From: Phycisphaerae bacterium
GTDB lineage: Bacteria; Planctomycetota; Phycisphaerae; WQYP01
NCBI GenBank assembly: GCA_049965755.1
Contig: JBMFVY010000001.1
Span: 14,370 to 78,369 of the forward strand
Reading direction: 5' to 3'
Length of the DNA: 64,000 nt
A program made the translations under genes and the position numbers. Of the stretch, positions 28,262 through 42,218 are shown piece after piece; positions within the stretch are counted from its first letter, which is position 1, and each line of letters opens with the position of its first letter. The notes beneath the pieces are model-generated. The model ran no database searches. It worked only from the letters and a program-made list of their open reading frames with translations, and was not told where the DNA came from.

Positions 28262-29995
28262 GTGGCGGTGGTGATGCACGGCTTTGTTTATGTCAATCCG
28301 GTTTTTCTGATCGTTTTCTTCCTGATCATCCTGGGTTGGGCAAAATTTGCCACATGGATCAGCACCGATCTCGATCAGCTCAATGATCAGAACGAAACCG
28401 TCTGGCGATCTGTACTTCTCGGGTCGTTTGGCCTCAACCTCCTGCTCTGGATCATCATCCCCAACTTTGCAGGAGCCTTGATTACCAATCTGATCGTGAT
28501 CGGCGGCATCTTCGGCTATTACATCAAGATACGTGTCGCACAACTCGGCCCGCCCCCCAATCCCCTCGATATGCTCACCGGCAAACTCGGTTCCACGGCC
28601 GAACAGCGGCAGGCCAAGAAATCGGCCGGGCAGTTGGCCCTCTCTTACCTCAATGCCGCCGGGCGCGGCGCCCCGCTTCCCAAAGTGGATGATCCCGCTT
28701 ATAACGGCGTGGTGTTGCTGGACAACCTCATATTCAGTGCCTTGGAGGCCCGCGCCCAGCGTATTGATCTGATACCGTCCGAGCAGGCCTACGATGTCAC
28801 CTACACCACCGATGGCGTTGGATATCCGCAATCCGGCATGCAGCGCAGCGCCGCAGAACCGATCATCCAATCCGTCAAACTGATATCCGGGCTCTCATTG
28901 GACGAGAGGCGACGCCCTCAGAAATCATCCCTCACGGTGGTCGACGCAGCGCACCATCGGACGCCTCTGGTCATTCGTACCAGCGGAACCACCGCCGGCG
29001 AACGCCTTACTCTCGTCATGAGCAGTTCCGACAGTTACAAGATGCCGCTGGATAACATCGGCCTCTCGTCGGAGCAACTCGCCGCCGTGCGCACCATCGT
29101 CAGCGATAATTCCGGTCTGGTCATTGTGGCATCGCCGCCTCATATGGGCCGCACCACCACGCTCTATTCCCTGATTGGTGCACACGATGCGTACACCCGC
29201 AGCATTCAGACGATTGAGGCCAATCCCCGGGCGGAATTTGAATCCATCACCGTCAACCCATTCGATCCGCAGGCGATCAACGCCAGTCACAGCAAGTTGC
29301 TTCAAAGCATCTGTCTGAAAGATCCCGACATTATCCTGGTCGGGCAGTGTCCCGATGCCGCGACCGCGGAAGTCATCTGTCGCTATGCCTCCAACGATCA
29401 TCGGGTTTATCTGGGCCTGCGGGCCGGTTCCGATGCCCCGACCATCATCGATTTATGGCGAAAGCTCCTCCCGGACAAGGAACTCGCCGCCCGTCCATTG
29501 CGCGCGGTGGTCTGTCAGCGTCTCATCCGTCTCCTGTGTCCGACCTGCAAAATCCCCTATCAGCCCGACGCCGAGACACTGGCCAAATTAAATCTTCCCG
29601 TCGGCCGACAGATGCAGGTTTTCAAGGCTAACACCCAACCGGCACGTGATCCCAAGGGTAATCCGGTCAAATGCCCCGATTGCGCCAGCCTCGGATATCG
29701 CGGCGTGACAGGCTTGTTTGAAGTACTGGTGGTGACGCCGGAAATTCGGGATATGATCGCGCATGGTCGGCCGGTTGAGGAAATACGCAACGCCGCCCGG
29801 AAAAACGGCATGATGATGCTCGTGGAACAGGGCATACGCAAGTTTGCGCTGGGCATTACCTCCATCCAGGAGGTGACCCGGGCACTCAGCGCAGAGCGTG
29901 CCAAGAAAACGCGCGAGGAAAAAATTACCTCCGCCAGCGGCAGCAGCACCACCGGTGCGGGATACGCCTCTCCCGGCGAGAGTCGATCGGAATAG
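28262..29995 (+). CDS. Membrane-anchored GspE/PilB-fold protein with degenerate Walker A (predicted pseudo-ATPase)
   Basis: Three N-terminal hydrophobic helices, then GspE-like N2 block (RIDLIPSEQAYDVTYTTDGV...LDERRRPQKSSL...RTSGTTAGERLTLVM). The P-loop position reads VIVASPPHMGRTTTLYS instead of G-x-x-G-x-GK-T/S (no Lys). Walker B-like DPDIILVGQCPD; tetra-Cys zinc motif CPTCK...CPDCASLGYRG; disordered S/T/G-rich tail. Confidence 0.7.
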   Translation: MAVVMHGFVYVNPVFLIVFFLIILGWAKFATWISTDLDQLNDQNETVWRSVLLGSFGLNLLLWIIIPNFAGALITNLIVIGGIFGYYIKIRVAQLGPPPNPLDMLTGKLGSTAEQRQAKKSAGQLALSYLNAAGRGAPLPKVDDPAYNGVVLLDNLIFSALEARAQRIDLIPSEQAYDVTYTTDGVGYPQSGMQRSAAEPIIQSVKLISGLSLDERRRPQKSSLTVVDAAHHRTPLVIRTSGTTAGERLTLVMSSSDSYKMPLDNIGLSSEQLAAVRTIVSDNSGLVIVASPPHMGRTTTLYSLIGAHDAYTRSIQTIEANPRAEFESITVNPFDPQAINASHSKLLQSICLKDPDIILVGQCPDAATAEVICRYASNDHRVYLGLRAGSDAPTIIDLWRKLLPDKELAARPLRAVVCQRLIRLLCPTCKIPYQPDAETLAKLNLPVGRQMQVFKANTQPARDPKGNPVKCPDCASLGYRGVTGLFEVLVVTPEIRDMIAHGRPVEEIRNAARKNGMMMLVEQGIRKFALGITSIQEVTRALSAERAKKTREEKITSASGSSTTGAGYASPGESRSE

Positions 29996-30008: not shown

Positions 30009-31649
30009 ATGATCATAGATATTGTAGTATTATTATTTCTGGCGTTGATCGTCTTCCTGATGGTCAATGAAGGCCCGTTTTCGGCATTGATCCTTCTTTT
30101 CTGCTCTCTGATTGCTTCCTTGACCGCCATGGGTTACTACGAACGCGCGGCGAATATCTTTGCCAAATGGCCGGATATGGCACGCGGGGTCGCCTTCCTT
30201 CTGATCTTTTTCGTGCTCCTTACGTCAACCCGCACCATTTTCGACTTTCTTGTCCGGGATGACATTGAACTTCCCCCTCTGCCCGCCAAAATTGTTTCCG
30301 GAGTGATCGGGTTTTTCGTCGGCATGGTTGTCATGGGTACCGTACTCATCGGCATTCAGATGCTCCCCCTCACATCCAGCATCGCCGGATACGACCGCTA
30401 CCCCAACGGTATGGCTCGAAGTTCATCTGCCATCTGGTTTGACCCGGATGGATTTGTCGAATCCATCTGGGATATGACCAGTGGTAATTCGGTCGGCGGC
30501 TCGCCGGCGTTTGCCATCGTCCATCCGCATCTGCTGCGGGAACTTTACGGCCTGCGCTACACCGTCCAGTTTGCCGGACGTAAAACACTCGCCCCCTCGC
30601 TGTTGAAAGTCATGGCGGCTGGAACCATTCCGGCTGATAAAGCATCGCTGTTCCACATTCCGCCCATGCTGGGAAAGAAAATTGTGGTTATCCGAACGGA
30701 AGTCCATCACGGATCCACGCAACCGGCCGTCTCCTCCGACTCCGGTTATTTCCGCCTCACGCCGTCCGAGGTCCGGCTGGTTACCACCGATGGGCATCAG
30801 TATTATCCCGTCGGTTTTCTCAGATATGGCGCGCTATTTCAAAAGCTCACCTTTAATTCGGCCGTGGTTGACGACTATCGGCATGTAAATGGTCACCGAG
30901 TGGTCATACAGAACTGGATATTCGCCCTTCGTCCATCGCAGAAGCCTTATTTTATTGAACTCAAAGGTACCGCACGCGGTATGATTGCCGGTGCCGCGAT
31001 CTCCAAAACGCTCGCCGCGCTTCCCATGCACGATTATCCCAAACTGGCCTATGAAAATTCCAAGCTTACCATTACCGTCGCTGCTGACGCCAAGTTGGGA
31101 ACATTGGTGGGCGTGGCGGTGCCCGCCCAGATTCGCATGTTGAAAGTCGCGGGGCTTGTGCAGGCGGCCTACAGACGCCTCGGTGTCATCAGCCGTGCCA
31201 TCACCAACAGTCAACCCCCGTGGTCGGATGCCTCTTCCCATACGGTCGGAACACCCACCGCCGAACAGGCCGGTCAGTGGCGGAGCATGGGAAACCAGTT
31301 GATTGCCAACGGCAATTCGCATGAGGAACCGTGGTGGGAAGTGTTGCAACTGCTGACGACCAGCCAGGTCAGCACCGATACGAGCCGCTCGCTGGCGCGC
31401 GAGCGTCACTTTTTCAAAAATCAGATCATTCCCCTGCTCAATGGCCAGGAGCCTGTCAATCTTCGCCTCACCCCGGGTAAGTCCACGACCATCAAGATTG
31501 CGCCGGGTAATTGGCAGATTATCCTCTGGAGCATCCACTCTTCACAAATGTACGTCTGGAGTAAGTCGGCTTCAGTGCGAATCGGGCAGTCGAACAGTGT
31601 TACGCTTGGTGGATCGGATCAGATTGTCAATTACAATCTGAGTAAATAA
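30009..31649 (+). CDS. CvpA-domain (colicin V production-like) membrane protein with large C-terminal extension
   Basis: The first ~130 aa (MIIDIVVLLFLALIVFLMVNEGPFSALILLFCSLIASLTAMGYYERAANIF...) match the CvpA multi-TM pattern. The remaining ~400 aa has no recognisable motifs. Starts 14 nt after the preceding gene. Confidence 0.5.
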   Translation: MIIDIVVLLFLALIVFLMVNEGPFSALILLFCSLIASLTAMGYYERAANIFAKWPDMARGVAFLLIFFVLLTSTRTIFDFLVRDDIELPPLPAKIVSGVIGFFVGMVVMGTVLIGIQMLPLTSSIAGYDRYPNGMARSSSAIWFDPDGFVESIWDMTSGNSVGGSPAFAIVHPHLLRELYGLRYTVQFAGRKTLAPSLLKVMAAGTIPADKASLFHIPPMLGKKIVVIRTEVHHGSTQPAVSSDSGYFRLTPSEVRLVTTDGHQYYPVGFLRYGALFQKLTFNSAVVDDYRHVNGHRVVIQNWIFALRPSQKPYFIELKGTARGMIAGAAISKTLAALPMHDYPKLAYENSKLTITVAADAKLGTLVGVAVPAQIRMLKVAGLVQAAYRRLGVISRAITNSQPPWSDASSHTVGTPTAEQAGQWRSMGNQLIANGNSHEEPWWEVLQLLTTSQVSTDTSRSLARERHFFKNQIIPLLNGQEPVNLRLTPGKSTTIKIAPGNWQIILWSIHSSQMYVWSKSASVRIGQSNSVTLGGSDQIVNYNLSK

Positions 31650-31780
31650 TTCCCCATGGCGCTTGACGTAAAGGGCACTATGTAACTATAACCCGGATAG
31701 GTGACGCCCAAACGCGAAGGCCATTCGCTGCACGCGTCGACCGGTTGGAACTTCAGACTTTCATGAAAGGAGATCACATC

Positions 31781-32416
31781 ATGGCATTTACTTTACCATC
31801 CCTTCCGTACGATTTCGCGGCACTCGAGCCGATCATCGATTCCCAAACCATGCAGATTCACCATGGCAAACACCACGGGGGTTACGTCGCCAACCTCAAC
31901 AAGGCCATTGAGGGGAAGTCAGCCCTTGAATCCAAATCCCTCGAAGCCCTCATCGGTGATTTGGCGGCGGTACCCGAAGATATCCGCGGTGCCGTACGCA
32001 ACAACGGTGGCGGACACGCCAACCATTCTCTGTTCTGGCAGATCATGGCGCCGCACGGCCACGGCGGAGGTGGCGAACCCACCGGTGAATTGCTTGCTGC
32101 CATCAATGCGGATTTCGGAAGCGTGGCGGAATTGAAAGCCAAAATCAATGATGCCGGGACCAAACGGTTTGGTTCAGGCTGGGCCTGGCTGGTCGTCAAG
32201 AATGGTAAACTGGCTGTCGGGTCAACCGCCAATCAGGATAATCCGCTCATGGGTGACACCGTTGCAGGCTTCTCAGGCAAGCCCATTCTCGGCGTGGACG
32301 TCTGGGAACATGCCTACTATCTCAAATACCAGAATCGGCGTCCGGATTACCTTGCCGCCTGGTGGGGCATTGTAAACTGGACCAAAGTTGCCGAATTGTA
32401 CAAAGCCGCCCGGTGA
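31781..32416 (+). CDS. sodA: Fe/Mn superoxide dismutase
   Basis: [40 protein letters not shown], metal-ligand His/Asp blocks ([17 protein letters not shown]). Canonical Fe/Mn-SOD. Confidence 0.95.
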
Positions 32417-32497
32417 CCGGTTCGCCGGCCGGAAATGACTCAGGCGGCCGATCAAAACCGCTCTTAGACCGTGCCGCCGTATAAAAAGAGGTGACCG

Positions 32498-32770
32498 ATG
32501 GGGAAAGCGAGTGTTGATCCGGCCGAACTGCGGCGCTTTGCGCAGGGCCTCAATCAATTTAATAACGATCTTCAGACCCTGATGGCCGGTCTCAGCGCCC
32601 GCATGCGGGCGCTGGAGAGCACCTGGCGCGATCAGGAGCAGAAGAAATTCGCCGAAGCCTTCGATCAGACGGCCAAATCGCTTTCGGTTTTTCTAGAGGC
32701 CTCCAGCCAGCATGCCAAGGTGTTGATGAAAAAGGCGCAGCTGATCGAAAAATATCTCAGCGAACATTGA
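32498..32770 (+). CDS. WXG100-superfamily-like small helical hairpin protein (variant W-R-D instead of W-x-G)
   Basis: 90 aa, AAAGAGGTGA RBS. Central motif STWRDQEQKKFAEAFDQT aligns with EsxA/YukE W-x-G-x-x-x-x-x-F-x-E-x-F (e.g. NWEGQAFSRFEEQF). Predicted all-helical; Trp at residue ~43 of 90. Confidence 0.6.
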   Translation: MGKASVDPAELRRFAQGLNQFNNDLQTLMAGLSARMRALESTWRDQEQKKFAEAFDQTAKSLSVFLEASSQHAKVLMKKAQLIEKYLSEH

Positions 32771-32784
32771 GTTGAGTTGAACCG

Positions 32785-33771
32785 ATGCCACAAGGTGCCA
32801 ATGTTCAATCCATTGAACTGCTCCGGGAATTGCAGACGGTGCTGTGGAAATTTCGCGAAGCCTGCGTCAGTTCTCTCAATGATGTGGAATCGGACCTGCG
32901 CCGCACGGTGATCTGGCTTGAGACGGAACAGGATAGCTATTGGAAAAGCCAGATACGCATCCGTCATGAGGCCCTCGAGCGGGCTAAAGAGGCGCTTCGC
33001 AGTAAAAAAATATTCAAAGATGCCTCCGGCCGCCCGCAATCCGTTGTCGAGGAGCAAAAGGCGCTCAAGATCGCCATGGCGCGCATGGCGGAGGCCGAAC
33101 AGAAGCTCGCCAATGTCCGCAAATGGGTGCGTGCCCTGCAGAAAGAAATTGAACTCTACAAATCCTCGGTGGGCCGCCTCTCTCACAGCGTGGAATCGCT
33201 CGTGCCTGCCGCCGTGCATCAGCTTGACCGGCTCACGACGTCGCTGGAAGCCTACGTAAACCTTGAGATACCCCAATCCGCTGCCCACAACAGCTCAGAT
33301 CATGCAGCCGGTGCCGGATTTGCCAACCGGGCCGAGGTTCTCACGGAAACCTCCGTACCAACCACACCTGCACCGATGGAAGTTCCCACTGACCAACAGC
33401 GTGCATCTGCACAACCTGCCTCGTCGATCGATATCCCCTGTCCGCAGATATCCGGCGACATTCTGGATCAGCTAACCATCGCCGCCGGGCAACTCCCCGT
33501 AGATTCACATAAGACTCTGGTCGCGCGTTCCATCGTCCGCGCGCCGATGGGGTTCACCCTCCTGCGCCGCTCACCTGCGGATGCCGATGACAGCGGTTGG
33601 ATGTTGCTTATCGATTCGGCGGATATTTCATCCGACGCTGCATGGGTGAAACTGAGCGTTGAATCTTTGCCGGGTGATGCGGCTCTTTGGAATATGATTT
33701 TGAGACTTCCCATCAATTCCAGCGTTAGGGTGATGGATGGTGCGGTGGTGCAGATCAGCCACGTGGAATGA
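32785..33771 (+). CDS. Hypothetical protein: N-terminal ~150-aa helical/coiled-coil domain, disordered linker, C-terminal ~100-aa domain; candidate secretion substrate or adaptor
   Basis: 328 aa. Starts 15 nt after the first WXG-like gene and ends 50 nt before the second. Heptad-rich N-terminus (LRELQTVLWKFREACVSS...KEIELYKSSVGRLSHSVESL), then a Pro/Ser/Thr/Ala-rich linker. Confidence 0.5.
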   Translation: MPQGANVQSIELLRELQTVLWKFREACVSSLNDVESDLRRTVIWLETEQDSYWKSQIRIRHEALERAKEALRSKKIFKDASGRPQSVVEEQKALKIAMARMAEAEQKLANVRKWVRALQKEIELYKSSVGRLSHSVESLVPAAVHQLDRLTTSLEAYVNLEIPQSAAHNSSDHAAGAGFANRAEVLTETSVPTTPAPMEVPTDQQRASAQPASSIDIPCPQISGDILDQLTIAAGQLPVDSHKTLVARSIVRAPMGFTLLRRSPADADDSGWMLLIDSADISSDAAWVKLSVESLPGDAALWNMILRLPINSSVRVMDGAVVQISHVE

Positions 33772-33821
33772 GATGCAAGCCGTGGCGGTGAGAACTCGGT
33801 TTACCTCAGGAGGACCTGCCG

Positions 33822-34034
33822 ATGGGTGTACATGAAAGCCAGGGGCGTCTGATCAAAGCCTTCAAAATGCTCCAGACACGCTGGGCACAGATCCATACCG
33901 GCTGGAACGACGCGGCCAGCGATCATTTCCAGGAAACATTTCTGGATCCGCTTGAAGCGGATGTCCGCAGTGCCGCTCAGGCCATCGATCATATGGCGGT
34001 CATATTGGGCAACGTAAAGAGAGATTGCGAGTAA
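33822..34034 (+). CDS. WXG100-superfamily-like small protein (second copy, motif W-N-D)
   Basis: 70 aa, CAGGAGGA RBS. Motif TGWNDAASDHFQETF matches W-x-[G/D]-x-A-x-x-x-F-x-E-x-F. Immediately upstream of the FtsK/SpoIIIE ATPase gene. Confidence 0.5.
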   Translation: MGVHESQGRLIKAFKMLQTRWAQIHTGWNDAASDHFQETFLDPLEADVRSAAQAIDHMAVILGNVKRDCE

Positions 34035-34067
34035 CACGGCAGATCATTTTGCCGGTATAAGGATGTC

Positions 34068-37000
34068 ATGCAGCAGATAGCCGATCAAGCCAACAGCAGC
34101 AACTCCACATGTCCCGCCGGGCCCGCCGATGGTGTCGGCCCGCTCGAGCGGCAGCGCAGCGCCCTGCGAGACCTTGTCGCGCTGGCTTCAGAATGTGCCC
34201 GGCGCGAAGCTGAAATTAATGAAGAATTCACCACCCAACGCGATACCGCCCGGGAGCGTTATAACGCTTCGATGAAAGAAATCGAGGCGCGGTTCAAGGC
34301 CCGCACGGACGAACTGGAAAATAAAATACACGAAGAAATGGACGGCATCGAACAGCAATACCGCCGGAAATTACAGACATTCCAGGCGGCTCATCAACAA
34401 ACGTGCGCCGGCATTCAGTGGGATTATTCCGCCGCCGAGAAGACCGCCCGATCGAGTTACGACGAAGCAAAACTCCTGATTGAAACCGGGCTTGATGCGT
34501 CTCACAACCGTGCACTGCAGGAAAAAGAAACATTAAAAGAAGAGGTCGCCTCTCATCTGGAAGCCGTCGAGAATCTCTTCAAGGAAACGGCGCAGGTCAT
34601 GGCCCGATACTCGCTCGTTCCTCCGGGTATCGAACCTGAAAAGGTAAAACCCCGGCTTCCTGCCGATCTATCCGTCAAAAAAGTGATGGCCGAGGAGCTT
34701 GAACAGGCGCGCTCCCGCCTTGCGGCGCTGGCTAAACTCCCCTTGCCGAAATTCATGTCGGGAATACTGCCGATAATGATCGGCCTGGCTCTTTGCAGTG
34801 TCGCAGGGATTGCCGCTCAGATGATCAAAGGGGGCTCCGTTCCGCACATCAAGACCATCACCATCGCAGTGGGTGTGGCGGTCGTCATTGAGGTGATCAT
34901 CTACATCCTGCTTCGGCGGGCCGCCAAGAAGCAGTTCAGTGCAGCATCCTTGCCGATCATCGAGGCGCTGGCCAGCAGCCACGCTGCATCTGAGCTTTTC
35001 TCGCAGGCACAGTTGGTGGAAATTCAAGCGGCTAACGATGCGGCCCGACGCAAAGGGCAGGCTGAACTGGATCGACTCAAACAACGCACCATCCAGACAA
35101 TTAAATCACTGCAGGAAAAGCGTTCGGCCCGCCTTGCCGCTGCCGAGGCCGATCGGGCTCGATCTACCGGCGAAGCGGATGCGGAAAAAGCTTCCCTGAT
35201 GGCGGCGCAGGCCACTTCCGCCGATGCCCGGCGAAATGAACTCAAACACAACTACGAAACGGAAATGGAGGCGGCGCGCAGAACGTTCGAAGGATCGAAT
35301 GCCGCCAACGAAGAACGAACCCGGCAGGCGTGGAGTGAACTTGATCAGCGTCTTCGAACCGGTCTGGCGCAAATCGCAGCTCCCACCGTTGATACCGGAA
35401 CCTCCGGCGGATACGCACCCGACGGTCGGCCGATCTGGGATCATTGGCACGCTCCTGAGAAATTTCCCGAATTAATGCCTTTCGGCCGTCTGAGCGTCAA
35501 CCTGAAGCAGATTGTGGATCAGGATTCAGCCGGCGCTCAGGTGAAATTGCAGTTTCCAGCGGAATTCACCGTGCCGGCATCACTGGCATTCCCGCACGGC
35601 GCATCCCTCGCGGTTCTTCATCAGCGCTCCGGCCGTGGCTTGGCTGTCGAGTTTCTGCGTGTGGTTATTCTCCGTCTGCTGACCTGTCTTCCCCCCGGTC
35701 GCGCCCGCTTTACCTTGATAGACCCCGTGGGCCTGGGGCAGAGCTTTGCGGGTTTCATGCGCCTCGCGGATTACGATGATGCCCTCGTCAACGGCCGAAT
35801 CTGGACTCAGCCCGATCAGATTGAACAGCGTCTCTCGCACATGACGGAGCACATGGAAACCGTCATCCAGAAATATCTTCGTAATGAATTCCCAACCATC
35901 GACGACTACAACGCCCAGGCCGGCGAATTGGCCGAACCGTATCGATTTCTGGTGGTGGCTGATTTTCCATCCGGCTTCGGCCCCGATGCACTTCGCAGGC
36001 TGGATGCCATCGCCGCCACCGGTGCCCGCTGCGGCGTCTACGTCCTGCTGTCATCCGAACGCGAGCAGAGCGGCGATGCGGCCGTCACACTTGATAAACT
36101 TCTGTCGCATTGTGTGGTACTTACTCAGGCGGAAGGTGGCTTCCAGTGGCGGGACGACATCTTCGGCAAGTTCCCGCTTACGCTCGATACATCGCCGACA
36201 GAAACAGTTATGACTACGCTGCTCGATCAGGTGGGCAAGGCCGCCAAAGCCAGTCAGCATGTTGAAGTCTCCTTTGAAACCATCGCCCCCAAAGAATCCC
36301 AGTGGTGGACCGGTAACAGTACCGCCGATCTCACCGTAGCCATCGGTCGTATGGGGGCTACGCGGCTCCAGATGCTGCGCCTGGGTAAAAATGTGGCGCA
36401 GCATGCACTCCTTGCCGGTAAGACGGGTTCCGGTAAATCGACGCTGCTTCATGTGCTGGTGACCAATCTTGCCATGTGGTATTCGCCGGACGAGGTGGAA
36501 CTCTATCTGATCGACTTCAAAAAGGGTGTGGAATTCAAAACCTACGCAGCGCACCGCCTGCCCCATGCCCGAGCCATTGCGGTGGAAAGCGATCGTGAAT
36601 TCGGTCTCAGCGTGCTGGAGCGGCTCGATGCGGAACTCGCCCGTCGCGGTGAATTATTCCGTGCCGCCGGCGTACAGGATCTCCCGTCCTATCGCCGCAC
36701 CACCGGCAAGCCGATGCCACGAACGATTCTCGTTATTGACGAATTTCAGGAATTTTTTACGGAAGATGACACCCTTGCCCAGCAGGCGGGACTGCTCCTC
36801 GACAGACTTGTTCGGCAGGGGCGCGCTTTCGGCGTGCACCTATTGCTCGGCTCGCAGACCGTCGGCGGTACTTCAGGCCTTGCCAGAAGCACGCTTGGCC
36901 AGATGGCCGTGCGCATCGCCCTGCAGGTGAGCGATGCCGATTCACAACTGATCCTCGGCGATAATAATTCTGCCGCCAAATTGCTCTCCCGCCCCGGTGC

Positions 37001-38039
37001 CGCGATCTATAACGACGCCGGCGGTCTCATCGAGGCCAACAGCCCATTTCAGGTTGCCTGGCTCTCTGATGAAAAGCGGGACGAATTTCTTGAAGCGGTT
37101 TCCCGTCGTGCCGCCCGCGTCGCCCATGACGGAAAAACCGCATGGCAGTCGAAGCCACCGGTCGTCTTCGAAGGCAATGCCCCGGCGGATGTGCATAACA
37201 ACGAACCCCTGAAAAAACTCCTCGTTTCGCTGCCGCCTGCTGCCATTCCTCTCGAACCCCACGCCTGGACAGGCGAACCGGTGGCGATCAAGGAACCGGC
37301 GTTCGTCACATTCCGACGCCAGAGCGGCGCTAATGTCATGCTCGTCGGTCAGCAGGAAGAACAGGCGCTCGCCGTCTTGAGTTGGATGCTCATCTCTCTC
37401 GCAGCCCAATTTCCAACCAATGGTGCGAAGTTTTATCTTCTTGACGGCACGCCCGCCGGATCGCCGCTTTCCGGTATCTTCCCCCAGTTGCCGTCACTGA
37501 TGCGCGGCGACGTTCAGGTTCCCGCCTGGCGCGATATTGAAAGCGCGATTGCCGCCATCGCCGCCGAGCTTTCCCAACGGCAGAAGGACCGGCGGCCCGA
37601 CGCCCCGGCCATCTTTCTGGTCATCTATGGCATGCAACGATTCCGCATGCTGCGAAAATCCGATTCCGATTTCGGGTTTTCACTTGGCGGCGCCGATGAG
37701 GAGAAAAAGGCCGACCCCGCAAAGGATTTCCAGGAGATCATTCGCGAAGGACCCGCCTTGGGCATTCATGTGCTGACCTGGGTTGATACGATGGCTTCCA
37801 TCGAGCGCACATTTGATCGTGCGATGCTGCGTGAATTTGATCAGCGTATTCTCTTTCAGATGAGCGCAGCCGACTCAAGCACATTGATTGATTCCGTCGC
37901 CGCCAACCGGTTGGGCTTTTACCGTGCCCTGCTGTGCAGCGAAGAACGCGGCACGATTGAAAAATTCCGCCCCTACGGCCTGCCCAAGGCCGCTGAACTT
38001 CAGCAGCTACGATCCGCTGATGCCGCAACGTCGGCGTAA
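34068..38039 (+). CDS. FtsK/SpoIIIE-family multi-domain ATPase, EssC/EccC-like (N-terminal coiled coil, 2 TM helices, three P-loop-type domains of which only the middle one is canonical)
   Basis: 1323 aa. Residues ~1-220 coiled coil. Two TM helices (ILPIMIGLALCSVAGIAAQMI; ITIAVGVAVVIEVIIYILL). Domain 1 has a degenerate P-loop (LAVLHQRSGRGLAVEF). Domain 2 is canonical: HALLAGKTGSGKSTLLHVL (Walker A), RTILVIDEFQEF (Walker B). Domain 3 is degenerate (NVMLVGQQEEQALAV; IFLVIYGMQRF). Confidence 0.8.
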   Translation: MQQIADQANSSNSTCPAGPADGVGPLERQRSALRDLVALASECARREAEINEEFTTQRDTARERYNASMKEIEARFKARTDELENKIHEEMDGIEQQYRRKLQTFQAAHQQTCAGIQWDYSAAEKTARSSYDEAKLLIETGLDASHNRALQEKETLKEEVASHLEAVENLFKETAQVMARYSLVPPGIEPEKVKPRLPADLSVKKVMAEELEQARSRLAALAKLPLPKFMSGILPIMIGLALCSVAGIAAQMIKGGSVPHIKTITIAVGVAVVIEVIIYILLRRAAKKQFSAASLPIIEALASSHAASELFSQAQLVEIQAANDAARRKGQAELDRLKQRTIQTIKSLQEKRSARLAAAEADRARSTGEADAEKASLMAAQATSADARRNELKHNYETEMEAARRTFEGSNAANEERTRQAWSELDQRLRTGLAQIAAPTVDTGTSGGYAPDGRPIWDHWHAPEKFPELMPFGRLSVNLKQIVDQDSAGAQVKLQFPAEFTVPASLAFPHGASLAVLHQRSGRGLAVEFLRVVILRLLTCLPPGRARFTLIDPVGLGQSFAGFMRLADYDDALVNGRIWTQPDQIEQRLSHMTEHMETVIQKYLRNEFPTIDDYNAQAGELAEPYRFLVVADFPSGFGPDALRRLDAIAATGARCGVYVLLSSEREQSGDAAVTLDKLLSHCVVLTQAEGGFQWRDDIFGKFPLTLDTSPTETVMTTLLDQVGKAAKASQHVEVSFETIAPKESQWWTGNSTADLTVAIGRMGATRLQMLRLGKNVAQHALLAGKTGSGKSTLLHVLVTNLAMWYSPDEVELYLIDFKKGVEFKTYAAHRLPHARAIAVESDREFGLSVLERLDAELARRGELFRAAGVQDLPSYRRTTGKPMPRTILVIDEFQEFFTEDDTLAQQAGLLLDRLVRQGRAFGVHLLLGSQTVGGTSGLARSTLGQMAVRIALQVSDADSQLILGDNNSAAKLLSRPGAAIYNDAGGLIEANSPFQVAWLSDEKRDEFLEAVSRRAARVAHDGKTAWQSKPPVVFEGNAPADVHNNEPLKKLLVSLPPAAIPLEPHAWTGEPVAIKEPAFVTFRRQSGANVMLVGQQEEQALAVLSWMLISLAAQFPTNGAKFYLLDGTPAGSPLSGIFPQLPSLMRGDVQVPAWRDIESAIAAIAAELSQRQKDRRPDAPAIFLVIYGMQRFRMLRKSDSDFGFSLGGADEEKKADPAKDFQEIIREGPALGIHVLTWVDTMASIERTFDRAMLREFDQRILFQMSAADSSTLIDSVAANRLGFYRALLCSEERGTIEKFRPYGLPKAAELQQLRSADAATSA

Positions 38040-38131
38040 CGCCACGGTCATCCATCGCGCCGTTGCTTGCGGCGGCCCGGTTGTGTATCGGTTGCCAAAA
38101 ATAACCGCACATCATGGCGGGGCTCCGACTT

Positions 38132-39244
38132 TCAGTGTATTCGGCGGAACATCCATGATGCCGTCAGCAGGCTCAGAACGGCAATGATGGACATCGGTAT
38201 GAGTTCCGGCATCAATTGGTGCACATTAGCCCCTTCAAGAAATGCCTCGCGTGCCGCCTGCACATCGTACCGCAGCGGATTGATAAGCGTGATCTTCTGC
38301 ACGAAACGCGGCATGTTGGATATCGGTGTCGCCAGGCCCGACAAAAGGGCACAAGGCATCACCAGCACAAATGTGCCCAGAAGAGCCTGTTGCATCGTGG
38401 ATGAAATCGAAGACACCAGCAGACCCAACCCCGCCGCTGCAATAATAAAGATGACAAAAGTGAGTACGATGGCCGCTGCCGAACCGTAATACGGAACATC
38501 AAACCAGTAGCGGACGATGACGAAGATGATGGCGGATTGACCCAACCCGATCAGAATAGGCGGAATGGTTTTACCCGCCATAATTTCCAGCGGTGTAAAA
38601 GGTGTTACCAGAAGCTGGTCAAATGTACCCTGTTCGCGTTCGCGCGCAATCGACATGGCGGTAATCACCATCACCGCCAGCATGGTGATAAGGCCGATCA
38701 TCCCCGGCACAATCTGCCATCGCGATAGCAGATTTGGATTAAACCAGGAACGTATCTGCAAAACCATCGGCGGAGCAATACCGGGATTCGCGGCCGATAA
38801 ATCTGCGTTGAACTGATTCTGAATTTCATTCAGGTAGCCGATAGCCAGAGCTGCCGTATTGGAATTGCGGCCGTCGGCAATAACCTGTACCTGCGCACTG
38901 CGGCCGGTGGCAATATCTCGGTCAAAGTGCTGTGGAATCTGGATGATCAGCAATGCCCTGCGCGAATCCAGCAAGGGGCGGGCGCGGCGGATATTTCCCA
39001 CCGATGCGACGCAATCAAAAATGCCCGAGCCGTTGATTCGACCGATGAACCGCGTCGACTCGCTGGAGTGGCTTTGATCCACCAGAACGTAGGGCACATG
39101 ATTAAGATCAAACGTGCCGGCATAGCCGAAAATAATCATCTGCAGGATCGGTGGCCCCAGCACAACAAATCGGCTGCGCGGGTCCTTGAAGATCGCCGTG
39201 AGTTCCTTGCGGATCAATGCCAAAATACGGAATATGATGTTCAT
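38132..39244 (-). CDS. ABC-2 type transporter permease
   Basis: 370 aa. One N-terminal TM, large periplasmic loop, then 5 C-terminal TMs (ABC-2/YhhJ-like topology). Part of a HlyD-ABC-permease-permease operon. Confidence 0.8.
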   Translation of the reverse strand: MNIIFRILALIRKELTAIFKDPRSRFVVLGPPILQMIIFGYAGTFDLNHVPYVLVDQSHSSESTRFIGRINGSGIFDCVASVGNIRRARPLLDSRRALLIIQIPQHFDRDIATGRSAQVQVIADGRNSNTAALAIGYLNEIQNQFNADLSAANPGIAPPMVLQIRSWFNPNLLSRWQIVPGMIGLITMLAVMVITAMSIAREREQGTFDQLLVTPFTPLEIMAGKTIPPILIGLGQSAIIFVIVRYWFDVPYYGSAAAIVLTFVIFIIAAAGLGLLVSSISSTMQQALLGTFVLVMPCALLSGLATPISNMPRFVQKITLINPLRYDVQAAREAFLEGANVHQLMPELIPMSIIAVLSLLTASWMFRRIH

Positions 39245-39245
39245 T

Positions 39246-40379
39246 TCATCCCAGCCGTTTCACTGTCAGCCGGCGCGTCAGGCCCAGAAAAATAACGGCC
39301 ATCAACACCAGCACCGCCGCATTAGGCAATATCACACTCCAGATATCACCCGCCAGAAACAACGTCTGCAGGAGTGCCACGAAATATCGTGCCGGAAGCA
39401 GGTAGGTGATGATCTGAATCGCTTCAGGCATGCTGCGTATATCAAAAATAAACCCTGAAAGCATCATCGCCGGTAGAAAGGTCAGCAGCAGCGCCGCCTG
39501 GCTGGCGATGAACTGGTTCTTTGTTCGCGTGGAAATCAGCAGCCCCATCCCCAGCGCCACCAGCAGGTAAAGCCCCGACACCAGAATCAACAGCGTCAGC
39601 GAACCACGGATCGGCACGTGAAACAATACTCTTGCCGCCGTCACCGCCACCGCCAGCCCGACCATCCCCAGACAGAAATACGGGACGATTTTGCTGATAA
39701 TGATTTCGCTCGGTTGCACGGGCGTAGCGAAAAGCGACTCAAACGTGCCGCGCTCCCATTCTCTTGCCACAACCAGTGCCGTCATCAGCGCCCCGATCAG
39801 CGTCATGATCAGCACCAATAACCCCGGCACCAGAAAATAGCGGCTGTCCATACTGCGGTTAAACCAGACCTGCTGCTCGATGGTGACCGGCTGCGCATAA
39901 CTGCGGCCGTGCGTCAGTTCCCACTGCGCAAGCCAGACACCCAGAACGCCCCGGGCATAGTTCTGAATTAATCGCGAGCGATTCGCGTCGATGCTGTTGA
40001 CCGTGAACTGAATATTCGCATGCCCGTTTCGCAAATTGCGGGAAAAGTCATGCCGCAGGCGCACAATCCCGTCGACGGCTCCCGCTGCCAGAAGTTTTTC
40101 CGCCTCAACCATGGAGTTAACCGCCTCCGGATGGAAATATCTCGACCCGGCAAACGCTCCAAATACCGATTGTGCCGACGGCGAGTGATCTTCCATCACC
40201 ACCGCCACGGGAACATGGTGGGCGTCAAGCGAGAGCCCGTAACCGAAAAGCAGGATCAGCAGAAGCGGAAGCACGATCCCCAGTGCAATGCTGCTCGGAT
40301 CGCGAATCATCTGCAGCGTTTCCTTGCGGCTCATCGCGACGATGCGGCGCAGCTTTCCAAGTGGAGCGGGGTGATTCAT
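39246..40379 (-). CDS. ABC-2 type transporter permease (second copy)
   Basis: 377 aa, same topology as the adjacent permease, 2-nt intergenic gap. Confidence 0.8.
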   Translation of the reverse strand: MNHPAPLGKLRRIVAMSRKETLQMIRDPSSIALGIVLPLLLILLFGYGLSLDAHHVPVAVVMEDHSPSAQSVFGAFAGSRYFHPEAVNSMVEAEKLLAAGAVDGIVRLRHDFSRNLRNGHANIQFTVNSIDANRSRLIQNYARGVLGVWLAQWELTHGRSYAQPVTIEQQVWFNRSMDSRYFLVPGLLVLIMTLIGALMTALVVAREWERGTFESLFATPVQPSEIIISKIVPYFCLGMVGLAVAVTAARVLFHVPIRGSLTLLILVSGLYLLVALGMGLLISTRTKNQFIASQAALLLTFLPAMMLSGFIFDIRSMPEAIQIITYLLPARYFVALLQTLFLAGDIWSVILPNAAVLVLMAVIFLGLTRRLTVKRLG

Positions 40380-42217
40380 GCAGCGCCTCTCGCCTTGGCG
40401 GCGGCTTTCTGCTCGTCCATCACCACCTGAATAAAGGCATCCTCTATCGTCGGTTCTTTTCGGTCGGGCGTGGCGGCAATTTTTCGGATTTCAGCAGGCG
40501 TTCCCCCGGCCAGTACACGCCCGTTCATCATGATCACCATGCGGTCGCAATATTCCGCTTCCTCCATAAAATGCGTCGTCACCACCACGGTAACCTGTTG
40601 ATCGGCCATGGCGGTAATCCGCTGCCAGAATTCCCGCCGGGCCAGCGGATCAACGCCCGATGTCGGTTCATCCAGAAATAGTATCTGCGGTTCATGCAGC
40701 AGGGCACACGCCATCGCCAATCGTCGCTTGAATCCGTCGGGAATCTCACCGGTTTTGTTCGGAAGGACGCGGGAAAGTTCAAATTCCTCTACCGCCCATC
40801 CCAATCGCCGTTTTCGGCGGCTTCCCCGCAAGCCGTAGGCACTGGCGAAAAAAGCGAGATTTTCCTCCACCGTCAATTGGCCATACAGCGAAAATTTCTG
40901 GGCCACATACCCCACCGCCTGCCGGGCCGACGCTCTTGCGTGCCGCAGATCGTACCCCGCCACCCGCAAAGTGCCGGAGGACAGCGGCAGGAGCCCGCAC
41001 AGCATGCGAAATGTCGTACTTTTACCGGCGCCATTCGGCCCCAGCAAACCAAAAATCTCTCCTCTGCGTATCTCAAAATTGACATGATCCACGGCGACGA
41101 AATCCCCGAATCGGCGCACCAAGTCGCGCACCGCCACCACGGGTTCATCGGAATGGTTCGCCGCCGGTGGCAGTGGGGGAGTGATATCGGGATTTCCTTT
41201 CGGGATATCACCACCGCCCGCCGATTCGGCCGCCGGTAACGTGGACGCCAGCGCCCGGCGCAGGACCACCATAAAACCATCCGCCAGATGCGGCTCAACC
41301 TCCCGTGCACCGCTCGGCGCCAATTCGCCCGGTGTCCGATCACCCGGCGCCTGTTCGCTGTCCGTGTTGCCCGCCTTAAGCACCAGACGCACCTCTCCCC
41401 CATTGGGCACTGCATCAGCCGTGCTGCTGACACGCAGCAGCGATGCCACCATCTGCCGCGGTTTCATGCCCGGCGGGGTGCGAAGTTGAAACGTCCGTCC
41501 ACGGGCATAATTCGCAACATCCCCCGGCGATCCCTGCGCCAATATCCTGCCGCGATACATCACCACAGCGTGATTACAGAATTCCGCCTCTTCCAGATAA
41601 GGCGTGCTGATTAAAAGCGTCAGCGATCGGGCTTTAACCAGATCGAGCAAAATCGCCCAGAGTTCCCGCCGAGAAACAGGGTCCACGCCGACGGTTGGTT
41701 CATCCAGAATCAACAACTCGGGCGATTGCACCAGTGCGCAGGCAAGTCCGAGTTTCTGTTTCATGCCGCCCGAAAGATGCCCGGCCAGTCGCTTTGTAAA
41801 TCGCCCCAGATTGGTCATGGCGAATAATTCCGGATATCGCGTGCGCCGATCCGCAGACGGTACACTGTGCAGATCCGCATATAAATCCAGATTTTCCTGC
41901 ACGGTTAAATCTTCGTAGAGACCGAATTTTTGCGGCATGTAACTCACGTGGGATTCCGCCGCATGCGGATGCTGAATAATATTGTGCCCCAGCACCTCAA
42001 TCTTGCCTGAATTCGGCGCCATCAACCCCATGATCAGCCGGATCAATGTGGTCTTGCCGGCGCCATCGGGCCCCACCAGCGCCACCATCAATCCCCGGCG
42101 CACTTCCAGTGAAATGCCCGCCAGTGCGGCTGTGATTCCTCCGCGTCCGTCGGGAAATGTTTTATGCACATCCCGACACGCAATGATCGGTTCCGTATCT
42201 GACTGGCCGAACTCCAT
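40376..42217 (-). CDS. ABC transporter ATP-binding protein with two fused ABC domains (RbbA/YhiH-like)
   Basis: Two Walker A motifs (GPDGAGKTT; GPNGAGKST), two LSGGMKQ-type signatures and Walker B (LILDEPTVGVD; LFLDEPTSGVD). Start taken at MEFGQSDTEP, adjacent to the HlyD stop. Confidence 0.85.
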   Translation of the reverse strand: MEFGQSDTEPIIACRDVHKTFPDGRGGITAALAGISLEVRRGLMVALVGPDGAGKTTLIRLIMGLMAPNSGKIEVLGHNIIQHPHAAESHVSYMPQKFGLYEDLTVQENLDLYADLHSVPSADRRTRYPELFAMTNLGRFTKRLAGHLSGGMKQKLGLACALVQSPELLILDEPTVGVDPVSRRELWAILLDLVKARSLTLLISTPYLEEAEFCNHAVVMYRGRILAQGSPGDVANYARGRTFQLRTPPGMKPRQMVASLLRVSSTADAVPNGGEVRLVLKAGNTDSEQAPGDRTPGELAPSGAREVEPHLADGFMVVLRRALASTLPAAESAGGGDIPKGNPDITPPLPPAANHSDEPVVAVRDLVRRFGDFVAVDHVNFEIRRGEIFGLLGPNGAGKSTTFRMLCGLLPLSSGTLRVAGYDLRHARASARQAVGYVAQKFSLYGQLTVEENLAFFASAYGLRGSRRKRRLGWAVEEFELSRVLPNKTGEIPDGFKRRLAMACALLHEPQILFLDEPTSGVDPLARREFWQRITAMADQQVTVVVTTHFMEEAEYCDRMVIMMNGRVLAGGTPAEIRKIAATPDRKEPTIEDAFIQVVMDEQKAAAKARGAA

Positions 42218-42218
42218 C

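What the first reader, a model, noticed from the sequence alone, without database searches (positions are those of the whole stretch)
32498..38039. Candidate type VII-like (WXG100/ESX-type) secretion locus in a probable Planctomycete
Four co-directional, tightly spaced genes. They encode two ~70-90-aa helical proteins with WXG100-like central motifs, a 328-aa helical protein, and a 1323-aa protein with N-terminal coiled coil, two TM helices and three FtsK/SpoIIIE-type P-loop domains. That is the EssC/EccC architecture. A WXG100 pair plus a membrane FtsK/SpoIIIE ATPase is the defining minimal signature of T7SS. Characterised T7SS are in Actinobacteria and Firmicutes. The genomic context here (DUF1559, PEP-CTERM, Tat-sulfatase) points to a diderm Planctomycete-like host, where to my knowledge no such system has been described. 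No EssA/EssB/EsaA or EccB/D/E/MycP homologues are visible nearby, so this would be a stripped-down or divergent apparatus.
Basis: partly seen in the sequence, partly recalled or inferred. Interest (0 to 1): 0.85.

Follow-up and report, generated by a model that had tools for sequence, protein, structure and literature searches.

The report
Minimal type VII-like secretion cassette
A conserved four-gene cassette in a Phycisphaerae (Planctomycetota) genome pairs ESAT-6-like helical proteins with a membrane-anchored EccC/EssC-like ATPase; comparative-genomics papers have noted this kind of module since 2012, but nobody has tested what it does.

Summary
The four co-directional genes exist exactly as described, but two details need correcting. 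Neither small protein has a literal W-x-G; both have an invariant W-x-D. The ATPase has three FtsK-like domains, but only the middle one keeps Walker A/B motifs.

p1 passes the Pfam WXG100 threshold, and its closest solved relative is Helicobacter pylori HP0062. p3 is a weak WXG100 relative. p2 is a roughly 100 Å helical hairpin with a clade-specific Imm33-like domain. The modelled ATPase matches the EccC triple-ATPase structure best.

The cassette is conserved in order and strand in 48 of 55 testable genomes across Planctomycetota, Verrucomicrobiota and Lentisphaerae. It has no other conserved neighbours and no EssA/B, EsaA or EccB/D/E.

The claim of novelty does not hold. Zhang et al. [quoted passage not shown] 2024 described soluble relatives inside CoCoNuT defence loci.

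The PVC form differs in having a conserved two-helix membrane anchor. That favours real export across the inner membrane, but export is inferred, not shown.

The parts
32498..32770 (+). p1: 90-aa WXG100-family helical hairpin protein of the HP0062 type. It has W43-R-D45 at the bend and an invariant Y86 in a C-terminal I-E-E-Y-L.
   Evidence: PF06013 E=4.7e-10, 40 bits against a cutoff of 27.3. The family profile matches H. pylori HP0062 (3FX7/2GTS) at E=2e-14 over the full length, then EsxB at 3e-9 and EsxA at 1e-5. NCBI name: 'WXG100 family type VII secretion target'. Invariant residues are listed. No hydrophobic segment.
32785..33279 (+). p2 N-terminal domain (residues 1-165): a long antiparallel helical hairpin (H7-76, H88-159). 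It is the universally conserved core of p2 and ends in L154-E-x-Y157, with Y157 invariant.
33391..33762 (+). p2 C-terminal α/β domain (residues about 203-326), Imm33-like. It follows a disordered linker (residues 163-194) and is a clade-specific addition.
   Evidence: Confident fold in the AF2 model. PF24719 is found in 29 of 42 close homologs, best E=3.8e-12, but this protein itself scores only E=0.082. Only 10 of 58 cassette loci carry the extension. 4 of 6 sampled long relatives have PF24719.
33822..34034 (+). p3: 70-aa divergent WXG100-like helical protein with invariant W28-x-D30 and near-invariant C69.
   Evidence: PF06013 E=0.018, below cutoff; TIGR03930 E=0.0022. hhalign against the p1 family 76%, E=2.4e-5. 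The p1 HMM hits it at E=8e-4. The family profile's best PDB hit is S. aureus EsxA at E=0.0044. Present in 60 of 80 loci.
34068..38039 (+). p4: 1323-aa membrane-anchored EccC/EssC-like ATPase.
34068..34727 (+). p4 N-terminal cytoplasmic helical region (residues 1-220), A/E/R-rich and putatively coiled coil.
   Evidence: Composition. Relatives are described as having an N-terminal coiled coil of more than 200 residues. Not modelled here.
34740..34922 (+). p4 transmembrane hairpin (residues about 225-285; TM1 about 228-249, a 10-residue loop, TM2 about 260-279, then RRAAKK).
   Evidence: Hydropathy. 60 of 65 PVC family members show two hydrophobic segments and 5 show a single segment (possibly two merged helices). 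The hairpin is absent in the Helicobacter, Caballeronia and Rhodococcus plasmid relatives.
35475..36302 (+). p4 domain DA (residues 470-745): a degenerate FtsK-like domain with no Walker A, analogous to the EccC DUF domain.
   Evidence: hhalign DA vs DC 95%, E=2e-8. α/β fold in the AF2 model.
36303..37097 (+). p4 domain DB (residues 746-1010): the only catalytically competent FtsK/SpoIIIE domain. Walker A is at residues 784-791 (nt 36417-36440) and Walker B at 887-892 (nt 36726-36743).
   Evidence: PF01580 best stretch 750-979. PDB sequence hits: EccC 4NH0 at 2e-37 and EccC5 at 1e-30. Motifs invariant in 65 sequences.
37098..38036 (+). p4 domain DC (residues 1011-1323): a degenerate FtsK-like domain ('VGQQEEQAL' replaces Walker A, 'IYGMQRF' replaces Walker B). 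It is the candidate substrate-receptor domain by analogy with EccC D3.
   Evidence: hhalign DC vs DB 97%, E=8e-11 with the alignment shown. AF2 model and EccC match. The receptor role is inference only.

Best explanation
This is a stand-alone, four-gene member of the 'WXG100 + three-domain FtsK-like ATPase' module that comparative genomics has called a minimal or mobile type VII secretion system. Here it occurs in a membrane-anchored form that is widespread in Planctomycetota, Verrucomicrobiota and Lentisphaerae.

Proposed mechanism:
1. p4 sits in the cytoplasmic membrane through a two-helix hairpin, with both its long N-terminal helical arm and its three stacked FtsK-like domains in the cytoplasm. 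Like EccC, EssC and FtsK, it assembles into a ring (inferred).
2. Only the middle domain hydrolyses ATP (shown by motifs). The two degenerate domains act as scaffold and substrate receptor (inferred from EccC DUF and D3).
3. The substrates are the three signal-peptide-less helical hairpin proteins encoded upstream. p1 is HP0062/ESAT-6-like and probably a homodimeric four-helix bundle. p3 is a shorter W-x-D hairpin. p2 is a roughly 100 Å hairpin. They probably assemble into an elongated helical bundle, much as LXG proteins do with their small Lap partners. The bundle would be recognised through the conserved [I/L]-E-x-Y helix ends and pushed across the inner membrane into the periplasm (inferred).
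4. No outer-membrane component is encoded, so the products would act in the periplasm or on the envelope.

Shown: the gene set, its conservation, the domain anatomy, homology to T7SS core parts, and the membrane anchor. Inferred: oligomerisation, substrate identity, and translocation itself.
For: - Genes and spacing.
- p1 is WXG100. It is closest to HP0062, which also has WRD at the bend, forms a dimeric four-helix bundle and sits near an FtsK/SpoIIIE gene.
- p3 is weakly WXG100-like by four independent weak signals.
- p4 is EccC/EssC-like: NCBIfam EccCa 125, EssC 109 and EccCb 96 bits against FtsK 29 bits. PDB sequence hits are EccC 2e-37 against FtsK 5e-12. Foldseek gives 4NH0 at E=1e-31 across all three domains.
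- Three domains with only the middle one active.
- The TM hairpin is conserved in 60-65 of 65 PVC members and absent in plasmid or CoCoNuT-type relatives.
- Synteny in 48 of 55 loci, with no other conserved neighbour.
- 418 confirmed loci among species-representative genomes.
- At least 7,886 p1 clusters and 2,546 p2 representatives.
- p1, p2 and p3 lack signal peptides and TM segments.
- Homologous cassettes in Helicobacter, Caballeronia and Rhodococcus plasmids place toxin-like proteins in the p2 slot (a helical N-terminus joined to an HNH or REase-like domain, followed by immunity genes). That fits a helical export domain.
- Literature.
Against: - No secretion has ever been shown for any member of this module, including H. 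pylori HP0062/HP0066.
- Close relatives lack TM helices and sit inside CoCoNuT/TerY-P defence loci, where Bell et al. argue for 'a different mechanism'.
- The canonical YxxxD/E secretion motif is not conserved in p2; only 6 of 58 sequences have the acidic residue.
- All NCBIfam EccC/EssC equivalog cutoffs are missed.
- The active domain is not robustly closer to EssC/EccC D1 than to FtsK in a single-domain tree.
- No accessory membrane proteins and no outer-membrane conduit are present.
- The Imm33-like (immunity-type) domain on p2 is hard to fit with an exported protein.
Confidence: 0.55

Rival explanations
1. The cassette is an intracellular conflict or defence module, not a secretion system. 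In this reading the ATPase ring works inside the cell as a sensor or remodeller, here tethered to the membrane. The helical proteins are its regulators or effectors, as proposed for the soluble relatives embedded in CoCoNuT/TerY-P immunity loci. The Imm33-like domain would be a remnant of a toxin-immunity pair.
For: - The PVC ATPases form a 100/100 clade with plasmid relatives that lack TM helices.
- The Caballeronia relative lies among VWA, CARF, PP2C, Ser/Thr kinase and AAA genes, matching the CoCoNuT extension described.
- The Helicobacter relative carries an HNH nuclease plus a SUKH immunity gene.
- p2 carries an immunity-type Imm33-like domain.
- The Rhodococcus relative lies beside TerD stress genes.
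Against: - The PVC cassettes are stand-alone, with no defence genes conserved nearby.
- There is no PADLOC system match; only generic P-loop hits to SspH, mad8 and HerA.
- The TM hairpin is conserved across the PVC family, which fits a membrane translocase.
- In this lineage the cassette sits stably between housekeeping genes, and the upstream synteny is kept at 72% identity.
- No compositional anomaly.
- Most PVC p2 proteins have no nuclease or immunity domain at all.
Confidence: 0.25
2. The cassette is the core of a conventional multi-component T7SS whose other membrane parts (EssB/EsaA-like or EccB/D/E-like analogues, and possibly an outer-membrane channel) are encoded elsewhere in the genome.
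For: Characterised T7SSa and T7SSb need several membrane proteins besides EccC/EssC (established knowledge; PMC11217815). Only a 64-kb window and ±10 kb of the related loci were examined.
Against: The four genes travel together across three phyla through completely different neighbourhoods, with nothing else co-conserved. That argues for a self-contained unit. The earlier literature likewise treats it as a stand-alone mobile operon.
Confidence: 0.1
3. p4 is a DNA translocase of the FtsK/TraB/TcpA type, involved in DNA transfer or segregation, and the small proteins are accessory factors.
For: In the family-HMM comparison, true FtsK proteins score 62-73 bits, similar to EssC D1 at 65-91 bits. 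The NJ tree places the clade beside FtsK, although with only 20/100 support. FtsK and TcpA motors are significant single-domain fold matches.
Against: - No FtsK alpha, gamma or 4TM domains (PF17854, PF09397, PF13491) in p4.
- The NCBIfam FtsK model gives only 29 bits against 125 for EccCa.
- Triple tandem domains with degenerate flanks are an EccC/EssC-type architecture, and the whole-protein fold match is EccC.
- There is an obligate association with a WXG100 protein.
- No relaxase or conjugation genes in the window flanks or among the conserved neighbours of related loci.
Confidence: 0.05

Closest known systems
The 'solo WXG + YueA-like three-domain FtsK/HerA ATPase' module, called a mobile or minimal T7SS (Zhang et al. 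2012, Biol Direct 7:18, Table 1 footnote 6; Anantharaman et al. 2012, cited; H. pylori HP0062/HP0066, Uchiyama et al. 2016)
   Same: - Three FtsK-like domains with only the middle one active.
- An adjacent WXG100 protein with W-R-D in place of W-x-G, as in HP0062.
- Explicitly reported from planctomycetes and verrucomicrobia.
- A self-contained operon found in varied genomic contexts.
- The p1 profile matches HP0062 at E=2e-14.
   Different: - The held sources do not describe the conserved p2 hairpin or p3 in PVC bacteria, the TM hairpin, or the Imm33-like fusion.
- The scale found here (418 species-level genomes, thousands of protein clusters) was not known in 2012.
- In this lineage the cassette looks chromosomally stable rather than recently mobile.
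EssC-like module in Type III-A CoCoNuT / TerY-P extensions (Bell et al. 2024, eLife 13:RP94800)
   Same: - An ATPase with a long N-terminal coiled coil and three domains, only the central one active.
- Two WXG100 proteins, one without WxG.
- A coiled-coil protein encoded between them.
- The Caballeronia plasmid example is homologous gene for gene to p1 (E=4e-26), to the p2 N-terminus (E=4e-4) and to the ATPase domains DA, DB and DC.
   Different: - Those ATPases lack TM helices; the PVC ones have a conserved TM hairpin.
- There the coiled-coil protein carries a D-ExK nuclease and is followed by an inhibitor-like gene. Here it is a bare hairpin or a hairpin plus an Imm33-like domain.
- Those modules sit inside defence loci; the PVC cassette stands alone.
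T7SSa (ESX; EccC with EccB/D/E/MycP) and T7SSb (EssC/YukB with EsaA/EssA/EssB/EsaB) of Actinomycetota and Bacillota
   Same: - A WXG100 substrate-type protein plus a membrane FtsK/SpoIIIE ATPase with a two-TM N-terminal anchor and stacked tandem ATPase-fold domains.
- The best structural match is EccC (4NH0), followed by EssC.
- The arrangement of small helical partners flanking a longer helical protein recalls LXG toxins with Lap partners (PMC9600955).
   Different: - No accessory membrane components.
- Three rather than four (DUF + D1-D3) domains, and a single nucleotide-competent site.
- No FHA domains; instead a 220-residue helical N-terminal arm.
- W-x-D instead of W-x-G, and no conserved YxxxD/E.
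- A diderm LPS-type host.
- All NCBIfam equivalog cutoffs are missed.

Membership tests
WXG100 superfamily (PF06013), tested on p1 | Score above the Pfam gathering threshold over nearly the whole ~100-aa protein | tested here: met
   40 bits against 27.3; residues 5-83 match model positions 3-81 of 86.
WXG100 superfamily (PF06013), tested on p1 | Central W-x-G motif at the hairpin bend | tested here: not met
   The motif is W43-R-D45. W43 and D45 are invariant in 57 sequences. The same WRD occurs in HP0062.
WXG100 superfamily (PF06013), tested on p1 | Helix-turn-helix hairpin that forms four-helix-bundle dimers | tested here: inconclusive
   The profile matches the full length of the solved HP0062 dimer (E=2e-14) and EsxB/EsxA structures. 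p1 itself was not modelled, and no multimer prediction was possible.
WXG100 superfamily (PF06013), tested on p1 | NCBIfam TIGR03930 (WXG100_ESAT6) cutoff | tested here: not met
   31.5 bits against 44.85.
WXG100 superfamily, tested on p3 | Significant match to WXG100 models | tested here: inconclusive
   PF06013 gives 15.7 bits against 27.3 (E=0.018), and 6 of 59 relatives reach E<0.05. TIGR03930 E=0.0022. hhalign to the p1 family E=2.4e-5. Best PDB hit is EsxA at E=0.0044.
EccC/EssC T7SS ATPases | NCBIfam equivalog cutoffs (TIGR03924 EccCa, TIGR03928 EssC, TIGR03925 EccCb) | tested here: not met
   125 against 509, 109 against 778, and 96.5 against 347 bits. Only the middle domain aligns.
EccC/EssC T7SS ATPases | N-terminal two-TM anchor followed by stacked tandem FtsK-like domains | tested here: met
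   TM hairpin. Three tandem domains. Foldseek top hit is the 4NH0 EccC triple ATPase at E=1e-31.
EccC/EssC T7SS ATPases | Several nucleotide-binding domains (Walker motifs in D1 plus D2 and/or D3) | tested here: not met
   Only one Walker A/B pair, in the central domain.
EccC/EssC T7SS ATPases | FHA domains at the N-terminus (EssC type) | tested here: not met
   No PF00498 or PF16697 hit. The N-terminus is a helical A/E/R-rich region.
EccC/EssC T7SS ATPases | Active domain groups with EccC/EssC D1 rather than with FtsK DNA translocases | tested here: inconclusive
   In the NJ tree, PVC plus plasmid relatives form a clade at 100/100, but its position is unresolved: sister to FtsK in 20/100 bootstraps, FtsK separate from all others in 62/100. 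Mean distances are 1.72 to EssC D1, 1.88 to FtsK and 2.13 to EccC D1.
Complete T7SSa / T7SSb systems | Accessory membrane components (EccB/D/E/MycP or EsaA/EssA/EssB/EsaB) in the locus | tested here: not met
   No other gene family is conserved within ±10 kb across 80 loci; the next best is found in 9 loci. The window's flanks encode T2SSE ATPases, a CvpA-like protein, SOD and an ABC-2/HlyD exporter.
Complete T7SSa / T7SSb systems | YxxxD/E secretion motif after the helix-turn-helix of a substrate | tested here: not met
   In p2, Y157 is invariant (58 of 58) but the +4 position is D or E in only 6 of 58. p1 ends in I-E-E-Y-L-x-Q-R.
Complete T7SSa / T7SSb systems | ATPase-dependent export of WXG100 proteins | not testable with these tools
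   Requires fractionation or secretome experiments.
Stand-alone WXG + three-domain FtsK module (Zhang 2012; Bell 2024) | Three FtsK/HerA domains with only the middle one active | tested here: met
   literature definition.
Stand-alone WXG + three-domain FtsK module (Zhang 2012; Bell 2024) | Adjacent solo WXG100 gene, a second WXG100-like gene without WxG, and a coiled-coil protein | tested here: met
   p1, p3 and p2. Homology to the Caballeronia, Helicobacter and Rhodococcus cassettes.
Stand-alone WXG + three-domain FtsK module (Zhang 2012; Bell 2024) | ATPase without TM helices; coiled-coil protein fused to a nuclease (CoCoNuT-associated subtype) | tested here: not met
   The PVC ATPases keep a TM hairpin. 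p2 has no nuclease domain. This makes the PVC cassette a different subtype of the same module.
FtsK DNA translocases | FtsK alpha and gamma (winged-helix KOPS-binding) domains and the 4TM N-terminus | tested here: not met
   No PF17854, PF09397 or PF13491 hit. NF007615 FtsK gives 28.7 bits against a cutoff of 1566.
Known anti-phage defence systems (PADLOC-DB 2.0) | Match of the cassette proteins to a system's component models | tested here: not met
   Only P-loop-level hits of p4's middle domain to SspH, mad8 and HerA. Nothing for p2 or p3, and a weak coiled-coil hit of p1 to ZorA.

The most novel reading that the evidence does not exclude
The PVC cassette is a self-sufficient minimal type VII-like translocase. 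A ring of the two-TM EccC-like ATPase alone forms the inner-membrane channel and exports a p1/p2/p3 helical bundle into the periplasm of diderm bacteria. It would be a distinct membrane-anchored T7SS subtype, ancestral or parallel to the Gram-positive systems and separate from the soluble defence-associated relatives.
Probability: 0.35. Interest if true: 0.75.

Novelty: new member of a known kind. Interest (0 to 1): 0.45.

Why it matters
Reviews and recent surveys still describe T7SS as confined to Actinomycetota and Bacillota (PMC11217815; PMC3796261). This cassette is a reminder that a homologous WXG100/EccC-like pair is abundant in the diderm PVC superphylum: 418 species-level genomes and thousands of protein clusters.

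If it does export proteins, it would be the simplest known T7SS-type machine, with one membrane protein and one active ATPase site. That would let researchers test whether an EccC-type ring can act as the channel on its own. It would also add a dedicated inner-membrane export route to Planctomycetes cell biology.

If it does not export proteins, it would show that the WXG100/FtsK pairing has a non-secretory, conflict-related role, and that would change how 'T7SS-like' annotations should be read. Either way the function is untested, and at least one cultured carrier exists (Verrucomicrobium sp. BvORR106, L070).

Tried and rejected
- Promoter and terminator scan of 31600-38400: no more sites than in shuffled sequence, so it says nothing about operon boundaries.
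- PADLOC scan: no system-level match.
- hhalign of the p2 N-terminus against the p1 and p3 families: no relation.
- YxxxD/E motif in p2: seen in the window's own protein but not conserved, so rejected as a family feature.
- Phage records and IMG/VR viral contigs: no PVC-type cassette. Phage hits are single-domain FtsK-like genes of Firmicutes phages.
- Search of the 64-kb window for further p1-, p2- or p3-like ORFs: none.
- Crude heptad heuristic for coiled coils: did not flag the p4 N-terminus, so it is treated as uninformative.
- The first tree attempt timed out. The numpy NJ tree is crude, the outgroup sampling is biased, and deep placement is unresolved.
- Sutcliffe 2011 and Anantharaman et al. 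2012 are not held in the library, so their content is cited only through papers that quote them.
- Composition profile: the cassette's GC (0.57-0.59) does not stand out from the window, so there is no sign of recent horizontal acquisition.

Full report
OBSERVATION. The gaps between them are 14, 50 and 33 nt, and Shine-Dalgarno-like sequences precede three of the four start codons. GC content does not differ from the surrounding DNA. p4 is 100% identical to an NCBI protein from a 'Phycisphaerae bacterium' MAG, so the predicted Planctomycete host is correct.

FAMILY ASSIGNMENTS. p1 passes the Pfam WXG100 gathering threshold (40 bits against 27.3) but misses the stricter TIGR03930 cutoff. p3 gives only weak WXG100 signals: PF06013 E=0.018 and TIGR03930 E=0.0022. 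Four independent weak lines agree, however. hhalign against the p1 family gives E=2.4e-5. The p1 HMM hits p3 at E=8e-4. The p3 family profile's best PDB hit is S. aureus EsxA at E=0.0044. WXG100 is also the family hit most often among p3 relatives. Neither protein has a literal W-x-G. p1 has W43-R-D45 and p3 has W28-N-D30, and W and D are invariant across 57 and 59 relatives respectively. p2 matches no family in its conserved part.

THE ATPASE. There is one canonical Walker A (GKTGSGKS, residues 784-791) and one Walker B (ILVIDE, 887-892), invariant in 65 family members. Profile-profile comparison within the family shows that the C-terminal region (1011-1323) is homologous to the active domain (97%, E=8e-11) and that the region 470-745 is homologous to the C-terminal one (95%, E=2e-8). 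Both flanking regions have lost the Walker motifs. An AlphaFold2 model of residues 451-1323 (pLDDT 83, pTM 0.67) shows three α/β domains. Its best PDB match is the triple-ATPase cytoplasmic domain of Thermomonospora curvata EccC (4NH0, E=1e-31, aligned across all three domains), followed by EccC and EssC two-domain structures. FtsK motors match as a single domain at about 1e-12. Sequence searches agree: EccC 2e-37 against FtsK 5e-12 in the PDB, and EccCa 125, EssC 109 and FtsK 29 bits in NCBIfam, all far below the equivalog cutoffs. There are no FtsK alpha, gamma or 4TM domains and no FHA domains. Two hydrophobic helices (about 228-249 and 260-279) are flanked by basic residues and joined by a 10-residue loop. 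This predicts an N-in/C-in hairpin with all large parts of the protein in the cytoplasm. A crude NJ tree of the active domain could not decide between an FtsK and an EssC/EccC D1 affinity. The EccC/EssC likeness therefore rests on architecture and the whole-protein fold match, not on single-domain phylogeny.

CONSERVATION. A scan of one genome per species found 418 loci encoding relatives of p4. Of the 80 retrieved, 66 are Planctomycetota (Tepidisphaerales, Phycisphaerales, Pirellulales, Isosphaeraceae and Planctomycetaceae), 11 are Verrucomicrobiota (including the cultured Verrucomicrobium sp. BvORR106), one is Lentisphaerae, one is an 'Alphaproteobacteria' MAG and one is unclassified. Of the 55 loci with at least 1.8 kb upstream of the ATPase, 48 carry homologs of p1, p2 and p3 in the same order and on the same strand. 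No other gene family is conserved within ±10 kb; the next most frequent is in 9 loci. A 72%-identical relative keeps the upstream neighbours (PIG-L, two T2SSE ATPases, a CvpA-like protein, SOD) but has different downstream genes. A 44%-identical relative has a mostly different context. The p1 family alone has at least 7,886 clusters at 90% identity. The TM hairpin is conserved in the PVC family: 60 of 65 sequences show two segments and 5 show a single segment, possibly two merged helices.

RELATIVES ELSEWHERE AND PRIOR ART. The closest solved structure to p1 is H. pylori HP0062 (E=2e-14). HP0062 is a dimeric four-helix-bundle protein with WRD at its bend and lies near an FtsK/SpoIIIE gene. Uchiyama et al. 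[quoted passage not shown] Three-domain relatives of p4 occur on plasmids. Their gene contexts are as follows:
- Helicobacter: p1-like gene, a helical-N-terminus 'HNH endonuclease', a SUKH immunity gene, a 77-aa gene, then the ATPase.
- Caballeronia: VWA, WXG100, a coiled-coil protein with an REase-like domain, a 113-aa gene, a 76-aa gene, the ATPase, then CARF, VWA, PP2C, a kinase and an AAA protein.
- Rhodococcus: the ATPase first, then p2-like, a 73-aa gene (containing LWRD) and p1-like genes, next to TerD genes.
The family HMMs for p1, for the p2 N-terminus (except against the Helicobacter protein) and for domains DA and DB confirm homology; the DC HMM recovers a C-terminal third domain in Rhodococcus and, weakly, in Caballeronia, but in Helicobacter it only cross-matches the active domain. 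The plasmid ATPases lack TM helices. Zhang et al. [quoted passage not shown] Bell et al. 2024 describe the same module inside Type III-A CoCoNuT loci. Their version has an N-terminal coiled coil of more than 200 residues, no TM helices, two WXG100 proteins (one without WxG) and a coiled-coil-nuclease fusion. They cite Anantharaman et al. 2012 for a stand-alone form. The 2024 survey of T7SS subtypes a-j covers only Bacillota and Actinomycetota.

INTERPRETATION. The most likely reading (confidence about 0.55) is a self-contained, membrane-anchored T7SS-like exporter. A ring of p4, powered by its single active domain, would recognise and move the signal-peptide-less helical proteins p1, p2 and p3 across the inner membrane. 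This reading rests on four points: homology to the two universal T7SS core parts, the conserved TM hairpin that sets the PVC form apart from its soluble defence-associated relatives, the tight four-gene conservation, and the toxin-like proteins that occupy the p2 slot in related cassettes. Oligomerisation, substrate identity and translocation are all inferred. The main rival (about 0.25) is a non-secretory conflict or defence role, as suspected for the CoCoNuT-linked relatives. The immunity-type domain on p2 and the 100/100 clade shared with TM-less ATPases point that way. The absence of neighbouring defence genes, the lack of any PADLOC match and the membrane anchor point against it. The other rivals are less likely: components encoded elsewhere (about 0.1) and a DNA translocase (about 0.05).

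NOVELTY AND VERDICT. The T7SS-like interpretation is sound at the level of homology and architecture. The claim that nothing like it has been described is wrong, because this kind of module, including its presence in planctomycetes, has been in the comparative-genomics literature since 2012, and p1 is already auto-annotated as a T7SS target. I found three things that the papers I could read do not state: the universal p2 hairpin and p3 in the PVC cassettes, the conserved TM anchor that separates PVC cassettes from the plasmid and CoCoNuT-type relatives, and the Imm33-like fusion. I classify the locus as a new member of a known, experimentally uncharacterised kind, with moderate interest (0.45).

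Noticed in passing
window 33391-33762 (p2 residues about 203-326): The C-terminal domain of p2 is Imm33-like (PF24719 in relatives). Imm33/DUF2185 is listed as an immunity domain against HNH-fold nuclease toxins, and the Helicobacter version of the cassette has an HNH nuclease plus a separate immunity gene in this slot. An immunity-type domain fused to the hairpin is unexplained; one possibility is that the toxin domain was lost by deletion.
   Followed up: partly
window 32740-32770 (p1 C-terminus) and 33244-33258 (p2 residues 154-158): p1 and p2 both end their second helix with a similar motif containing an invariant tyrosine (p1 I-E-E-Y86-L; p2 L154-E-x-Y157). The p1-like proteins of the Helicobacter, Caballeronia and Rhodococcus cassettes also end in L-x-x-Y. 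This may be a shared recognition signal for the ATPase.
   Followed up: partly
window 26954-28102 and 28262-29995 (+ strand): Two T2SSE-family (PilT/GspE-like) ATPase genes lie 2.5-5 kb upstream of the cassette. The same pair is kept in the 72%-identical relative (L084), and T2SSE genes again lie about 5 kb upstream in a 44%-identical relative (L086). This may be lineage synteny or a loose association. The 577-aa one appears to have about 110 N-terminal residues with hydrophobic segments, which is unusual for this normally soluble family.
   Followed up: no
L082 (Rhodococcus sp. AH-ZY2 conjugative plasmid), 4480-9910: An actinobacterial relative has the gene order reversed (a 1322-aa ATPase first, then p2-like, 73-aa and p1-like genes) and lies directly beside TerD and DUF475 tellurite-stress genes. 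This echoes the published TerY-P association.
   Followed up: partly
L081 (Helicobacter sp. NHP19-012 plasmid), 3761-8163: A plasmid-borne Helicobacter cassette reads: p1-like 89 aa, a 340-aa 'HNH endonuclease' with a helical N-terminus, an SMI1/KNR4 (SUKH) immunity gene, a 77-aa gene and an 823-aa three-domain ATPase without TM helices. This is a toxin-immunity arrangement inside the module.
   Followed up: partly
L048 (MAG labelled Alphaproteobacteria, PBMH01000006.1): A complete PVC-type cassette (p1, p2, p3 and the ATPase at 38% identity) sits in a MAG labelled Alphaproteobacteria. This is either a binning error or horizontal transfer out of the PVC superphylum.
   Followed up: no
L050 and L066 (both from MAG CB11b_AW.61): One Planctomycetota MAG carries two separate copies of the cassette on different contigs, so the module can be multi-copy within a genome.
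   Followed up: no
window 38132-43253 (- strand): Convergent with the cassette is an exporter operon: two ABC-2 permeases, a fused double ABC ATPase and a HlyD-type membrane-fusion protein, followed by an ArsA-like ATPase. It is not conserved next to the cassette in relatives, so it is probably unrelated to it.
   Followed up: partly
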